Assembly (NCBI RefSeq): GCF_045037415.1
Contig: NZ_CP173438.1
Strand: one strand, 5' to 3'
DNA length: 64,000 bases
Source: Escherichia coli
Lineage (GTDB): Bacteria > Pseudomonadota > Gammaproteobacteria > Enterobacterales > Enterobacteriaceae
Shown: positions 7,765-13,185 of the stretch, piece by piece
How positions within the stretch are numbered: position 1 is the stretch's first letter
Layout of the letters: every line of letters begins with the position of its first letter
Position numbers and translations under genes: made by a program
Notes under the pieces: generated by a model
Told to the model about the DNA's origin: nothing
The model's database searches: none
The model's input: only the letters and a program-made list of their open reading frames with translations

Positions 7765-9255
7765 ATGCCATACTTTCAGTATCCTGATGAGTTTCCCCTG
7801 AGCTCGCTGCCTCCACTCATTCGTGATGCCGTTATTGAAGCTCAGCAAATCACGCAGGCTCCCCTGGGGCTTGTGGCAGCATCTGCCCTGGGCGCTGTTT
7901 CACTTGTCTGCCAGAATCTGATTGATGTCTGCAGACTGAATACACTACGGGGGCCGGTTTCTCTTTTCTTACTGACGCTTGCTGAGTCCGGAGAACGAAA
8001 AACCGCAGTGGACAAATTATTAATGGAGCCCCTGTACCAGCAGGAGATGCTGTTATATTCCAGACACAAAAATGAACTGACGACATGGAAAAATAAGGAA
8101 GAGCTTTTAAAGGCGCAGAAAAAAGCATTGTTGTCAAAACTGAATAAAGAACTCCGCAAAGGCGCGGATGAGTCAGAAACGCTCAGACAACTGGAAGCGC
8201 TTCAGAAAAACAGAGGGGAAAAACCTGTAAGATATAAATTCATTTTTAATGATGCCACGACTGCGGCAATTAAGAATCAGCTTTGTGGTAAATGGCGTTC
8301 AGTGGGTATTATGTCAGATGAAGCCGGTATAATATTTGATGGGTATACCCTGTCTGAGCTGCCTTTTATTAACAAAATGTGGGATGGCTCCGTATTGTCG
8401 GTGGACAGAAAGAATGAACCCGAACAGATGATTGAAAATGCCAGAATGACATTATCCCTCATGGTACAACCCGGTCTTTTTGACCGATATATGGAGCGAA
8501 AAGGTTCTGTTGCCAGGGACAGTGGTTTTCTTGCCCGTTGTCTAATCAGTAAACCTGCCACCACGCAGGGGAAACGCTTTATTAACGGAGCTGTGACCCC
8601 GGGAGGATCATTAACGGCATTTCATGAACGATTAATGGAGCTGGCCAGAGGCAGTATTGAAAAATCCAGTAAGGATGAACGTTATTGTCTGCATTTTTCT
8701 CCTGAAGCGCAAAAAATATTTATTGATCACTATAATGTTCTGGAGCAGGATTTGTCTCCTTCCGGACCCTTAAGCCAGTTTCGGGGACATGTTTCAAAAA
8801 AAACAGAAAACATTGCGAGAATTGCTGCGTTATTGCAGTATTTCAGTCAGGGTGAAGGGAAAATCTCTGCCGATATCATGACGTCTGCTGTCGTAATAAG
8901 TTCGTGGTACACAGATGAATATAAAAAATTATTTGCGTTACCTGATGAATCTGAACTGCAGCTGCAGGACGCCCGGGAGCTGCTCGACTGGCTCATTGAG
9001 GAGTGCCGCGGAGAATGCCCGCCCCGTGTCAGGAAAAATTATATTCTCCAGTGTGGCCCGGGCCGGTTCCGGAACAGGAAAAAGCTGAACGTCCTGCTGA
9101 ACATTCTTGCATCTCAACTCAGGCTCTCTGTCGTGCAGGAAGGAAAAACCACCTATGTCCTGCTTTCCGAAATAAACAATATCACGCTGCCTGAACTGAA
9201 TGCGTGCTACAGCCAGAAACTGATAAGATGGCATGAGCAATCCTTTGGCTTATAA
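7765..9255 (+). CDS. DUF3987-type protein (YfjI-like), genomic-island primase/helicase-associated family
   Basis: 496 aa from ATG at 7765 (GAGG 7 nt upstream); overall resemblance to CP4-57 YfjI-type proteins, from memory. Confidence 0.7.
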   Translation: MPYFQYPDEFPLSSLPPLIRDAVIEAQQITQAPLGLVAASALGAVSLVCQNLIDVCRLNTLRGPVSLFLLTLAESGERKTAVDKLLMEPLYQQEMLLYSRHKNELTTWKNKEELLKAQKKALLSKLNKELRKGADESETLRQLEALQKNRGEKPVRYKFIFNDATTAAIKNQLCGKWRSVGIMSDEAGIIFDGYTLSELPFINKMWDGSVLSVDRKNEPEQMIENARMTLSLMVQPGLFDRYMERKGSVARDSGFLARCLISKPATTQGKRFINGAVTPGGSLTAFHERLMELARGSIEKSSKDERYCLHFSPEAQKIFIDHYNVLEQDLSPSGPLSQFRGHVSKKTENIARIAALLQYFSQGEGKISADIMTSAVVISSWYTDEYKKLFALPDESELQLQDARELLDWLIEECRGECPPRVRKNYILQCGPGRFRNRKKLNVLLNILASQLRLSVVQEGKTTYVLLSEINNITLPELNACYSQKLIRWHEQSFGL

Positions 9256-9375
9256 TGTTCCCTGTTGCTGAGACGGATTATTCAGTGGTGGTATCGCAGT
9301 ATGCCCGTCACCCCCGCTTCTGCATGAGGGTGACGGAGGAAAAGTAAGTGTGCGGAGGCCCGGGAGCGTTATGAA

Positions 9376-9948
9376 TCAACAGGCGTATAACAGGTACTCG
9401 TCAATCATCAGTTCCAGCTCGCGCTTTTCCCGTTTGCGCGCCACAGCCCAGTTTTCAAGCTCTGCATGTGATTTATGCTTTAACTCTTCAGTCCAGGGCT
9501 GCATGGAGTGGGCACACATCAGATCATACCAGCACAGCCATATCAGCGTGTGGTAGAGATCACGATCGTCGAAACGCCGGAGCAGGCTGTTCAGCCTGTT
9601 TGCCAGCCGGTTTTCACCCAGACGATGTAGCTCACTGAGTAAAACGCCGCCCAGATTAAAATGTGTAAGCAGCATGATTTCATGGGTCTGAATGCTGGTC
9701 ATTAACCCTTCCTGAATGGCAGGAATGAACGGTGGTGTTCCCGGGTTGACGACCTGATAGAGTCCCTGTGGTGCCACTGAGATGATGGTGCCTTTTTCTG
9801 GCAGAAAAAAGTGGGCCAGGGTCAGGCGGTGATAACCATGAAGATGCGGAGCCCCCATTCCATGAGCGACGATAAGCCTCGTCACGTTTGTCATCCATTT
9901 CTGATGCTGGATGAGCAGCAGCTCACACCGGTTTTCAAGTTTTTGCAT
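9376..9948 (-). CDS. hypothetical protein downstream of alpA
   Basis: 190 aa from ATG at 9948 with AAGGAGA SD; no family recognised. Confidence 0.55.
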   Translation of the reverse strand: MQKLENRCELLLIQHQKWMTNVTRLIVAHGMGAPHLHGYHRLTLAHFFLPEKGTIISVAPQGLYQVVNPGTPPFIPAIQEGLMTSIQTHEIMLLTHFNLGGVLLSELHRLGENRLANRLNSLLRRFDDRDLYHTLIWLCWYDLMCAHSMQPWTEELKHKSHAELENWAVARKREKRELELMIDEYLLYAC

Positions 9949-10033
9949 AATATTCTCTCCTTTAGCGCGCAGCAAAATGCCTCCGGGGGCCGGATCATGC
10001 CTTTGCTGCGGTTGAACGGATAACGGTCAGGAA

Positions 10034-12065: not shown

Positions 12066-12635
12066 ATGACCTACAAATACAACCCCTTCTGGCAGCAACG
12101 TATTCGTGAGACGGTGCGGCACGCACTGAATGTTCATTCCCGCCTGACGGCATTGCGGGTTGACCTGCGTTTCCCGGATGTACCGGCAGCAACGGACGCA
12201 GCTGTGATATCCCGCTTCATCAATGCCCTGAAAGCCCGAATCGACGCTTACCAGAAACGTAAGCATCGGGAAGGTAAACGCGTGCATCCCACAACCCTGC
12301 ATTACGTCTGGGCCCGGGAGTTTGGGGAGTGCAAAGGTAAAAAACACTATCACCTGATGCTGCTGGTCAACCGGGATACCTGGTGTCGTGCCGGCGATTA
12401 CCGCGCTCCGGGATCACTGGCCGGGATGATTAAACAGGCGTGGTGCAGTGCCCTGGGAGTGGATGCCGGACGTTATGACACGCTGGCACATTTTCCGGTC
12501 AGGCCGGCGGTGTGGCTGGAACGCGATGATGACACCGGCTTTCAGCAGGTGCTGGAGCGTGCTGACTATCTGGCGAAGGAGAGTACCAAAGCTTACGGCA
12601 CCGGTGAGCGCAACTTTGGCTGCAGTCGTGGCTGA
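12066..12635 (+). CDS. YagK/YfjJ-family (inovirus Gp2-like) protein
   Basis: 189 aa from ATG at 12066 (GGAGA SD); MTYKYNPFWQQRIRETV... resembles YfjJ/YagK proteins of CP4 elements. Confidence 0.7.
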   Translation: MTYKYNPFWQQRIRETVRHALNVHSRLTALRVDLRFPDVPAATDAAVISRFINALKARIDAYQKRKHREGKRVHPTTLHYVWAREFGECKGKKHYHLMLLVNRDTWCRAGDYRAPGSLAGMIKQAWCSALGVDAGRYDTLAHFPVRPAVWLERDDDTGFQQVLERADYLAKESTKAYGTGERNFGCSRG

Positions 12636-12801
12636 GCCCGACAGACGACTTATCTGACCTTAGTGTGATGACGTGTTCACAGCGACCACACTGATTTTCC
12701 CTTCTGAGACTGAACTGAAAACCGCCATTCACACCTGACCACGCTGCCCGTACCGGGACGGCTGTTGCCTGTGTGTCGTCTGGCGCAGAGGAACATATAC
12801 T

Positions 12802-13185
12802 ATGTACGCAAAATCTTTTCTCGCACTTGATGGCAACGGACGTCTGACCGGTGCCCGTACCGCACAAACTGCTCCTTATGCCCACTACACCTGCCACCTT
12901 TGCGGCAGTGCACTCAGATACCACCCGCAATACGACACCGAACGGCCCTGGTTTGAACACACTGACGACGGGCTGACGGAGCACGCGCAGCAATGTCCTT
13001 ATGTCAGGCCGGAACGCAGAGAAATACGGTTGATTAAACGTCTGCAGCAATTCGTCCCGGATGCCTTACCCGTGGTACGTAAAGCCAGCTGGTACTGCAG
13101 GCAATGTCACCACGATTATTATGGGGAGCAGTACTGCACACACTGCCAGACCGGGCGTTTCAGTGAGGAGGGGGTAGCAGAATGA
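12802..13185 (+). CDS. hypothetical Cys-rich (zinc-ribbon-like) protein
   Basis: 127 aa with CxxC...CxxC and CxxC...CxxC pairs; AGAGGAA SD. Confidence 0.5.
   Translation: MYAKSFLALDGNGRLTGARTAQTAPYAHYTCHLCGSALRYHPQYDTERPWFEHTDDGLTEHAQQCPYVRPERREIRLIKRLQQFVPDALPVVRKASWYCRQCHHDYYGEQYCTHCQTGRFSEEGVAE

What the first reader, a model, noticed from the sequence alone, without database searches (positions are those of the whole stretch)
7765..13185. P4/CP4-like island backbone fragment without an integrase, containing an unrecognised 190-aa gene co-oriented with alpA
The DUF3987-type, AlpA and YagK/YfjJ-like genes are the usual integrase-proximal set of CP4-type islands, but no integrase or tRNA is in the window and the gene orientations are rearranged. 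The 190-aa ORF directly downstream of alpA (9376-9948) has an excellent AAGGAGA SD and no family I recognise. Accessory slots next to alpA in P4-like elements often hold defence or regulatory cargo.
Basis: inference. Interest (0 to 1): 0.4.

Follow-up and report, generated by a model that had tools for sequence, protein, structure and literature searches.

The report
Unnamed core island gene following alpA
The 190-aa gene is not swappable cargo but a conserved, still unnamed core gene that follows the excision regulator alpA in a family of enterobacterial genomic islands and marks the edge of their variable cargo; the surrounding block is an ordinary, long-known part of the E. coli pheV pathogenicity island.

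Summary
Window 7765-13185 carries YfjI/DUF3987, a 190-aa ORF, a Vis/AlpA-like gene, an hha remnant, YfjJ and a DUF7828 zinc-ribbon gene, with no integrase or tRNA in the window. The block is 100% identical to many E. coli chromosomes. In those genomes the P4-type integrase and tRNA-Phe (pheV) lie about 6-7.5 kb beyond the window's right end. The same layout was listed in 2001 as orf38-orf47 of the Shigella SRL island.

The 190-aa protein matches no Pfam, NCBIfam, PHROG or PADLOC family. A confident model (pLDDT 87) has no fold match in PDB or BFVD. The cargo reading is not supported:
- It is under strong purifying selection (dN/dS 0.04-0.12).
- The family is small and found only in Enterobacterales.
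- In 27 loci from about 14 genera it follows alpA: directly in 24, with one zinc-ribbon ORF between in 2, and with no upstream DNA in 1.
- A covarying RNA hairpin precedes it.
- Conservation ends within about 20 nt of its stop codon. Downstream lie restriction-modification, BrxR-GmrSD, TIR, OLD nuclease, efflux and T6SS genes.

It is therefore the last backbone gene. Its function is unknown; my best guess is an accessory partner of the Vis/AlpA switch.

The parts
5474..6433 (-). YeeP/YfjP-like GTPase, the first gene of the conserved GTPase-Ag43-DUF932-antirestriction-RadC-CbtA/CbeA arm. The window copy carries an extra T near 5601 that changes and lengthens the C-terminus.
   Evidence: Pfam MMR_HSR1 E 9e-15. 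RefSeq calls it 'GTPase family protein'. The frameshift relative to THO-003 and O104:H4 is seen.
7765..9255 (+). YfjI (DUF3987, helicase-like), convergent with the 190-aa gene. It lies in the variable slot downstream of that gene.
   Evidence: Pfam DUF3987 E 3.6e-94. PHROG 2373 'DNA helicase' E 3.8e-81. It is absent next to the 190-aa gene in all 27 loci of other species. A near-identical YfjI lies beside a 36%-identical allele of the 190-aa gene in L045.
9356..9375 (.). Backbone/cargo junction. Similarity between E. coli island variants ends 7-17 nt after the stop codon of the 190-aa gene.
   Evidence: Alignment of the window with O104:H4 and strain 19-5. ORFs downstream of the gene are almost never shared among the 27 loci.
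9376..9948 (-). The 190-aa protein (F190): an unnamed family restricted to Enterobacterales. It is predicted soluble (pI 6.9). The model shows an N-terminal long helix plus a beta-hairpin, a poorly modelled linker, and a helical C-terminal domain. Invariant motifs are G-x-L-x-S-E-x-x-R and L-x-x-L-C-W.
   Evidence: No family hit. 94 representative clusters out of 1.84 billion proteins. Alignment A5. Model pLDDT 87.2, pTM 0.87. No fold match. dN/dS 0.035-0.12.
9961..10014 (-). Conserved two-tier hairpin in the alpA-F190 spacer, ending about 12 nt before the ribosome-binding site. It is probably an RNA element in the 5' leader of F190.
   Evidence: A hairpin is predicted in 19 of 21 spacers. The covariance model finds it just upstream of F190 in 28 loci, including loci where another ORF separates alpA from F190. 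89% of cells are paired against 38-51% in the slid controls, 8 of 16 pairs change on both sides, and 0 of 500 shuffles reach the observed score. No Rfam family matches here.
10034..10240 (-). Vis/AlpA-like 68-aa helix-turn-helix protein of the excisionase/regulator family; the first cistron of the pair.
   Evidence: Phage_AlpA E 9.6e-9 and HTH_17 E 1e-6. 34% identical to P4 Vis at E 7e-13. 25% identical to K-12 AlpA.
11158..11337 (+). hha remnant (pseudogene lacking its N-terminus).
   Evidence: RefSeq annotation of the identical sequence. hha is intact at the same place in O104:H4 and is listed as orf40 in the SRL island.
11670..11867 (-). 65-aa ORF with a CxxC...CxxC zinc ribbon followed by a hydrophobic tail.
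   Evidence: RefSeq hypothetical protein WP_001547002.1. Weak Zn_ribbon_15 hit and PHROG families of unknown function.
12066..12635 (+). YfjJ/YagK ('inovirus Gp2 family'), divergent from alpA.
   Evidence: YagK_YfjJ_C E 3.3e-48 and a weak REP_ORF2-G2P hit. RefSeq name.
12802..13185 (+). 127-aa DUF7828 plus zinc-ribbon protein, another backbone gene of this island family.
   Evidence: DUF7828 E 4.2e-31 and Zn_ribbon_11 E 6.3e-8. Found near F190 in 10 of the 27 genome-scan loci and in four of the six other loci examined.
13182..13283 (+). Start of a second zinc-ribbon gene, cut by the ISEc23 (IS66-family) insertion that begins just before 13371. This is the right-hand break of the backbone block.
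   Evidence: RefSeq pseudogene annotations on either side of the IS in the identical genome.

Best explanation
**Shown**
- Window 7765-13185 is the regulatory/replication-side backbone of a CP4-57/SRL-type genomic island embedded in the E. coli pheV pathogenicity island. This island type has a P4-family integrase.
- The 190-aa gene (F190) is a core gene of that backbone.
- It lies downstream of, and co-oriented with, a Vis/AlpA-like gene, and a conserved, covarying hairpin precedes its ribosome-binding site.
- It is the last conserved gene before the island's variable cargo region.

**Inferred**
- alpA and F190 are co-transcribed. The hairpin acts at the RNA level to set how much F190 is made relative to AlpA, by processing, stabilisation or attenuation.
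- F190 is a soluble two-domain protein that works with or just after Vis/AlpA in the island's excision or activation switch. It is not a defence gene or other cargo.
- I put the backbone and operon part at about 0.85. I put the specific role as accessory partner of the Vis/AlpA switch at about 0.3.
For: **Identity and context**
- The block is 100% identical to many E. coli chromosomes, and 780 genomes carry at least 80% of it.
- The integrase and tRNA-Phe lie just beyond the window in genomes identical over this stretch.
- The same gene order is listed in the SRL island table.

**Linkage to alpA**
- An AlpA ORF lies upstream and co-oriented in 26 of 27 loci from about 14 genera. The 27th has no upstream DNA.
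- The spacer is 71-188 nt in 24 loci.
- The scan found no promoter-like or terminator-like site on that strand in the spacer.

**Hairpin**
- It travels with F190 even when a DUF7828 ORF separates alpA from F190.
- It covaries, with many G-U pairs on the sense strand.

**Selection**
- dN/dS is 0.035-0.12.

**Boundary with cargo**
- 23-49% of upstream ORFs are shared with at least 8 other loci, against 0-3% of ORFs more than 2 kb downstream.
- E. coli variants diverge 7-17 nt after the stop codon.
- Downstream genes differ from locus to locus: type I RM, BrxR-GmrSD, TIR, OLD nuclease, SMC-like ATPases, ArsA, AcrB and TssF.
- L045 combines a 36%-identical F190 allele with a near-identical yfjI, which places a recombination breakpoint between the two genes.

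**Not defence or viral**
- No PADLOC hit.
- Almost absent from phage records and from IMG/VR, where only 2 contigs carry it.
Against: - Nothing tested here bears on biochemical activity.
- Co-transcription is inferred from spacing and a consensus scan, not measured.
- Operon linkage could reflect only shared inheritance of a small module.
- In the most distant subfamilies the gene order differs. Kosakonia has yfjJ-F176-DUF7828-alpA, and Yersinia enterocolitica has a divergent alpA.
- The near-invariant Cys of the SEC motif is Leu in the window allele, so that residue is not essential.
- The 27 loci were retrieved with a peptide pattern taken from this subfamily, so they are not an unbiased sample.
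- The covariation alignment was fitted to the model's structure and includes two low-scoring stray hits.
Confidence: 0.55

Rival explanations
1. F190 is a replication or mobilisation accessory that takes the place of YfjI (DUF3987 helicase-like) in the alpA-X-yfjJ array. For example, it could be a loader or specificity factor for the YfjJ (Gp2-like) initiator.
For: - CP4-57 has alpA-yfjI-yfjJ.
- Five loci (L023, L024, L025, L029, L039) have alpA-F190-yfjJ in the same order and orientation.
- None of the 27 loci has a DUF3987 gene within 10 kb.
- YfjJ carries a weak match to a replication-initiator domain.
Against: - Profile comparison of F190 with YfjI gives probability 0.1%, and nothing resembling a replication protein appears in PDB.
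- Many loci have no yfjJ nearby.
- The window and L045 carry both F190 and YfjI.
Confidence: 0.2
2. One reading: F190 is accessory cargo, either defence or a cargo-specific regulator, sitting in a variable slot next to alpA.
For: - It has no known family.
- It lies next to a slot that often holds defence genes.
Against: - It is conserved with alpA across about 14 genera, while everything downstream changes.
- The junction lies after its stop codon.
- No PADLOC hit.
- Its selection pattern resembles that of alpA.
Confidence: 0.05
3. F190 is an establishment or anti-defence protein made early after island entry, alongside the antirestriction, RadC and DUF932 genes of the other arm.
For: - The island encodes antirestriction and related entry functions.
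- F190 is small, soluble and restricted to mobile islands.
Against: - It sits in the alpA operon, not in the antirestriction arm.
Confidence: 0.1
4. The ORF is spurious or a decaying pseudogene.
For: Many truncated versions appear in the databases.
Against: - dN/dS is 0.035-0.12.
- Full-length homologues exist down to 23% identity with invariant motifs.
- The structure model is confident.
- The ribosome-binding site is strong.
Confidence: 0.01

Closest known systems
Shigella flexneri SRL pathogenicity island, orf38-orf47 (Luck et al. 2001; table reproduced in PMC6980539)
   Same: The gene order is the same: IS66 genes, orf38, YfjJ (orf39), Hha (orf40), Vis/AlpA (orf41), an ORF with 'no similarity' (orf42), then GTPase (orf46) and Ag43 (orf47).
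   Different: Three further 'no similarity' ORFs (orf43-45) sit where the window has yfjI.
E. coli K-12 cryptic prophage CP4-57 (intA, yfjH, alpA, yfjI, yfjJ, then cargo, then yfjP and the rest)
   Same: Both have a P4-family integrase at a tRNA-type site, an AlpA-family gene, YfjI, YfjJ, a defence-rich variable region (abpAB, rnlAB) and a GTPase-led conserved arm.
   Different: CP4-57 has no F190 (HMM search). Its alpA is followed directly by yfjI, and all three genes are co-oriented. The window's AlpA is only 25% identical to K-12 AlpA.
Satellite phage P4 left operon (vis, cI region, epsilon, orf151, orf106, alpha)
   Same: A Vis-type excisionase/regulator heads an operon of small accessory genes. 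The window's AlpA is 34% identical to Vis.
   Different: No psu, delta, sid, epsilon, alpha or int homologue is in the window. F190 is unrelated to Orf151 and Psu, with profile probability at or below 0.3%.
Defence hotspots of integrated mobile elements (P4-like satellites and integrase-associated islands; from my own knowledge of the literature, not tested against a specific paper here)
   Same: A variable region rich in restriction and other defence genes is flanked by conserved element genes.
   Different: Here the conserved flank is F190 rather than psu or int. The cargo also includes efflux, arsenic-resistance and T6SS genes.

Membership tests
P4-like phage satellite | Capsid-size and late-control genes sid, delta and psu | tested here: not met
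   phmmer of P4 Sid, Delta and Psu against all window ORFs gives no hit at E <= 0.01.
P4-like phage satellite | Alpha primase-helicase and epsilon derepressor | tested here: not met
   No hit for P4 alpha or epsilon. YfjI carries DUF3987 only.
P4-like phage satellite | Vis/AlpA-type regulator | tested here: met
   P4 Vis against window 10037-10357 gives E 1.4e-10. BLASTP gives 34% identity at E 7e-13.
CP4-57 / SRL-type island (P4-family integrase genomic island of Enterobacterales) | P4-family tyrosine integrase next to a tRNA gene | tested here: met
   Not in the window. In genomes identical over this stretch the integrase and tRNA-Phe lie about 6-7.5 kb beyond the window end. That integrase is 35% identical to K-12 IntA.
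CP4-57 / SRL-type island (P4-family integrase genomic island of Enterobacterales) | AlpA-family gene, YfjI (DUF3987) and YfjJ/YagK | tested here: met
   Pfam hits. RefSeq names.
CP4-57 / SRL-type island (P4-family integrase genomic island of Enterobacterales) | Conserved arm: YeeP/YfjP GTPase, (Ag43), DUF932, antirestriction, RadC, DUF987, CbeA/CbtA, DUF4942 | tested here: met
   GTPase and Ag43 are in the window. The rest lies immediately to the left in the identical genome. The same arm accompanies F190 in other genera.
Any named protein family for the 190-aa protein (Pfam, NCBIfam, PHROGs, PDB sequences) | Significant profile match | tested here: not met
   No hit for the protein or for 40 family members scanned one by one at E <= 1. 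The best PDB profile hit has E 0.19.
Known or candidate anti-phage defence systems (PADLOC-DB 2.0) | Match to a defence-system protein model | tested here: not met
   No hit at E <= 0.1 for the 190-aa or 127-aa proteins.
'Secretoglobin family protein' and 'malate transporter' (names some sources give to relatives) | Uteroglobin/secretoglobin domain, or a membrane transporter architecture | tested here: not met
   These names appear. No such Pfam family was hit among 40 members. The window protein has GRAVY -0.18, and the model shows no membrane-spanning helices.
Rho-independent terminator (for the hairpin at 9961-10014) | G+C-rich stem followed by a U tract | tested here: not met
   A stem is present. 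It is followed by CGCUAAAGGAGAG in the window and by CCUGUCAUU in most loci. The terminator scan finds nothing there.
Known RNA family (Rfam 15) for the hairpin | Match at gathering score | tested here: not met
   The five Rfam hits in the window are all elsewhere.

The most novel reading that the evidence does not exclude
The alpA-hairpin-F190 unit is an undescribed control module shared by a widespread family of Enterobacterales islands. F190 would be a protein of novel fold that partners the Vis/AlpA excisionase-regulator, for example by setting excision directionality or by coupling island activation to the cargo boundary. Its conserved 5' RNA hairpin would tune its dosage. A more speculative version has F190 helping to create the very sharp cargo junction that sits just after its own stop codon.
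Probability: 0.25. Interest if true: 0.5.

Novelty: new variant of a known kind. Interest (0 to 1): 0.33.

Why it matters
These islands carry much of the virulence and phage-defence cargo of E. coli, Salmonella, Yersinia and their relatives. About one in five complete E. coli genomes has this gene.

Placing the variable region immediately after a conserved, unnamed gene gives a practical anchor for finding cargo in this island family. It also points to a testable candidate component of the poorly understood AlpA/Vis excision switch.

The block itself is a known, ordinary piece of a well-studied pathogenicity island, and no function has been shown for the protein. The gain is therefore modest.

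Tried and rejected
**Family and fold searches for the 190-aa protein (all negative)**
- Pfam, NCBIfam, PHROGs and PADLOC gave nothing for the protein itself, and Pfam and NCBIfam gave nothing for 40 relatives.
- The PDB sequence-profile search gave a best E of 0.19.
- The first structure model, built on 4 sequences, was poor (pLDDT 55) and was not used.
- The AFDB50 library was unavailable.

**Candidates suggested by position (all negative)**
- P4 Orf151, P4 Psu (also 190 aa), K-12 YfjH and YfjI were compared by profile. All gave probability at or below 0.3%.

**Other checks**
- Literature searches for the accession and for the gene set found no study of this protein. The only relevant find was the SRL island ORF table.
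- A first attempt to scan genomes with the 40-sequence alignment failed because no stretch was conserved enough. A 7-sequence sub-alignment worked.
- RNAalifold on the raw MAFFT spacer alignment recovered only the inner stem, because the outer arms were misaligned. A covariance model was needed.
- The protein next to the integrase (347 aa) was tested as a possible missing link between int and alpA. It has no counterpart in the leuX island variant.
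Full report
**What is there**

The window is E. coli DNA. Positions 1-33400 are 99.994% identical to the chromosome of strain THO-003, and 32991-60375 continue in the same genome. The 6.4 kb around the finding is 100% identical to many E. coli chromosomes, and 780 complete genomes carry at least 80% of it.

Pfam and the RefSeq annotation of the identical sequence agree on the gene content:
- YfjI/DUF3987 at 7765-9255 (+)
- a hypothetical 190-aa gene at 9376-9948 (-)
- a 68-aa AlpA-family gene at 10034-10240 (-)
- an hha remnant at 11158-11337 (+)
- a 65-aa zinc-ribbon ORF at 11670-11867 (-)
- YfjJ ('inovirus Gp2 family') at 12066-12635 (+)
- a 127-aa DUF7828 plus Zn_ribbon_11 protein at 12802-13185 (+)
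- a second zinc-ribbon gene cut by an IS66-family element

To the left lie the YeeP-like GTPase and Ag43. Beyond the window, in the identical genome, lie DUF932, antirestriction, RadC, CbtA/CbeA and DUF4942. The window has no tRNA and no integrase homologue.

**Where the integrase is**

In THO-003 a P4-family integrase and tRNA-Phe (pheV) lie to the right. They sit behind IS66 copies and the nan, iha, sat, iuc/iutA and pap remnants that fill the rest of the window. From 60376 the window differs from THO-003 by a group II intron inserted in an IS3 copy. Genomes with that variant, such as AGR4587, match window 57000-64000 at 99.9%. They place the integrase about 6.0-7.2 kb, and tRNA-Phe about 7.4 kb, beyond the window end.

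The backbone segment therefore belongs to the large composite pheV island, and the integrase is separated from it by roughly 50 kb of virulence cargo. A leuX island in strain 19-5 shows the compact form: tRNA-Leu, integrase remnant, IS elements, alpA, the 190-aa gene, an IS1 scrap, a 339-aa gene and the GTPase, all on one strand.

The ORF table of the Shigella SRL island lists the window's order: IS66, orf38, YfjJ, Hha, Vis-like orf41, 'no similarity' orf42, then GTPase and Ag43. O104:H4 has the same layout. The orientation pattern is thus a standing architecture, not a local rearrangement. Equating orf42 with the 190-aa gene is my inference from position.

**The 190-aa protein is a real family with no name**

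It has no hit in Pfam, NCBIfam, PHROGs or PADLOC. An exhaustive profile search of 1.84 billion representative proteins found only 94 clusters, many of them fragments. A second search showed the named members are all Enterobacterales: Escherichia, Salmonella, Serratia, Yersinia, Kosakonia, Erwinia, Mangrovibacter and Enterobacter. Further cluster members come from Citrobacter, Klebsiella, Cronobacter and Lelliottia.

Sources call relatives 'hypothetical', 'malate transporter' or 'secretoglobin family protein'. Neither specific name is backed by any Pfam hit among 40 members.

The 40-sequence alignment (23-39% identity to the window protein) has these invariant residues: L11, Q16, L63, G101, L103, S105, E106, R109, L119, L135, L138, C139, W140, L143 and Y185. 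The near-invariant Cys after S-E is Leu in the window allele.

Between E. coli alleles dN/dS is 0.035-0.12, much like alpA. The gene occurs in 1014 of 5426 complete E. coli genomes, usually once.

**Structure**

With 4 sequences the model was poor. With 40 it is confident, at pLDDT 87.2 and pTM 0.87. It shows a long N-terminal helix, a beta-hairpin (42-60), a low-confidence linker (about 68-89) and a bundle of seven helices.

It matches nothing convincing:
- Foldseek against PDB gives a best E of 2.1.
- Foldseek against viral models gives a best E of 1.1.
- The PDB sequence-profile search gives a best E of 0.19.

The AFDB library could not be searched. The protein is near-neutral (pI 6.9) and not hydrophobic.

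**It is backbone, not cargo**

A scan of one genome per species returned 27 loci in Lelliottia, Brenneria, Yersinia, Hafnia, Citrobacter, Enterobacter, Serratia, Pectobacterium, Photorhabdus, Kluyvera, Salmonella, Enterobacillus, Mixta and Providencia. Two MAGs labelled Collinsella and Bacillota also appeared and are probably mis-binned.

Linkage to alpA:
- In 26 of the 27 loci an AlpA ORF lies upstream on the same strand. The 27th has no upstream DNA.
- The spacer is 71-188 nt in 24 loci.
- In L031, L041 and the earlier locus L002 a DUF7828 ORF sits between the two genes.
- A YeeP-like GTPase lies 2-3 kb upstream and divergent in 16 loci.
- YfjJ and DUF7828 appear on either side.

Boundary with cargo:
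- 23-49% of upstream ORFs have homologues in at least 8 other loci, against 0-3% of ORFs more than 2 kb downstream.
- The downstream genes differ from locus to locus: BrxR-GmrSD plus type I RM; TIR plus type I RM plus a helicase; LlaJI/McrB-like; an OLD nuclease; SMC-like ATPases; SNF2 helicases; and also ArsA, AcrB and T6SS TssF.
- Within E. coli, three island variants are alignable through the gene and diverge 7-17 nt after its stop codon.
- One IMG/VR contig (L045) joins a 36%-identical allele of alpA-F190 to a yfjI nearly identical to the window's. A recombination breakpoint therefore lies between the two genes.

It starts one gene further on, and in the window it holds yfjI.

Salmonella carries two tandem paralogues (191 and 173 aa) after alpA. 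In the most distant subfamilies the order differs. Kosakonia has yfjJ-F176-DUF7828-alpA, and Yersinia enterocolitica has a divergent alpA.

**A conserved hairpin precedes the gene**

The alpA-F190 spacer folds into a two-tier hairpin (window 9961-10014, minus strand). A similar hairpin is predicted in 19 of 21 spacers from different genera. The mean z-score over whole spacers is only -1.4.

A covariance model built from 11 loci finds the element about 20 nt upstream of the F190 start in 28 loci. These include L031 and L002, where another ORF separates alpA from F190, so the element goes with F190.

On the model-fitted alignment:
- 89% of cells pair, against 38-51% when the partners are slid.
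- 8 of 16 pairs change on both sides.
- No shuffle out of 500 reaches the observed covariation score.

The many G-U pairs on the sense strand argue for an RNA structure rather than a DNA palindrome (my inference). There is no U tract and no Rfam match. Two caveats apply: the alignment leans towards the model, and it includes two stray low-scoring hits.

**What it is not**

- It is not a P4-like satellite. Only Vis among the P4 proteins has a homologue in the window, and the F190 family model hits nothing in P4 or in CP4-57.
- F190 is unrelated to P4 Orf151, Psu, YfjH or YfjI.
- It is almost absent from phage records, with one hit in a 3.6-kb entry, and from IMG/VR, with 2 contigs.
- Most of the nine plasmid-collection hits are in records of chromosome-like size, 0.8-4.9 Mb.

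The window's AlpA is closer to P4 Vis (34% identity) than to K-12 AlpA (25%).

**Mechanism**

Shown: F190 is conserved, under purifying selection, lies downstream of a Vis/AlpA gene, is preceded by a covarying hairpin, and is the last conserved gene before the variable region.

Inferred: it is co-transcribed with alpA, the hairpin sets its expression at the RNA level, and it acts with or after Vis/AlpA in the excision or activation switch. I hold the last step at about 0.3.

The main rival, at about 0.2, is a replication accessory standing where YfjI stands in CP4-57. In its favour, five loci read alpA-F190-yfjJ and none of the 27 has a DUF3987 gene nearby. Against it, the window and L045 have both genes. 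Defence cargo, anti-defence and a spurious ORF are less likely for the reasons above.

**Verdict**

The block is a known, ordinary part of a well-studied pathogenicity island. What is new is modest: an unnamed protein family of unmatched fold, restricted to Enterobacterales, together with its 5' hairpin, forms a fixed unit with alpA at the exact backbone-cargo junction of a widespread island family. I rate it a new variant of a known kind, of moderate-to-low interest, with a clear experimental path.

Noticed in passing
window 9961-10014 (minus strand): A two-tier hairpin between alpA and the 190-aa gene. It is conserved with compensatory changes across about 14 genera and always lies about 20 nt upstream of the 190-aa gene's start. 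It has no U tract and no Rfam match.
   Followed up: yes
window about 5601, within the GTPase gene (5474-6433, minus strand): One extra T relative to THO-003 and O104:H4 shifts the reading frame near the 3' end. The last codons change and the ORF is extended by 29 codons. This could be a real frameshift or a sequencing error.
   Followed up: partly
window 5251-5456 (minus strand): Full-length match to Rfam IS102 RNA (258 bits), lying between the GTPase gene and Ag43.
   Followed up: no
window about 60376-63000: A group II intron (Rfam Intron_gpII at 62560-62646, with the ltrA reverse transcriptase) is inserted into an IS3 copy. This is the point where the window departs from strain THO-003. 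107 complete genomes share this variant.
   Followed up: partly
window 13284-19475: Two IS66-family elements lie in inverted orientation and share about 88% identity over about 2 kb. The first (ISEc23) splits a second zinc-ribbon gene into fragments at 13182-13283 and about 15818-15907.
   Followed up: partly
L008 9271-9846 and 10001-10522 (Salmonella enterica): Two tandem paralogues of the 190-aa family (191 and 173 aa) follow alpA. The shorter type is the one databases label 'malate transporter' or 'secretoglobin family protein'; neither name is supported by any domain hit.
   Followed up: partly
L015 and L030: Contigs assigned to a Collinsella MAG and a Bacillota MAG carry this enterobacterial module. 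L015 is 97% identical to the E. coli protein. These are probably binning contamination.
   Followed up: no
L045 1-9320 (IMG/VR contig): Lambdoid tail genes (tail L, NlpC/P60 tail protein, tip attachment protein J) lie directly upstream of an alpA-F190-yfjI block. Either a prophage sits next to the island or the viral contig includes flanking island DNA.
   Followed up: partly
window 6434-7764: About 1.3 kb of A+T-rich sequence (about 40% G+C) with no annotated gene lies between the GTPase gene and yfjI. In other E. coli island variants a 339-aa gene occupies this position.
   Followed up: no
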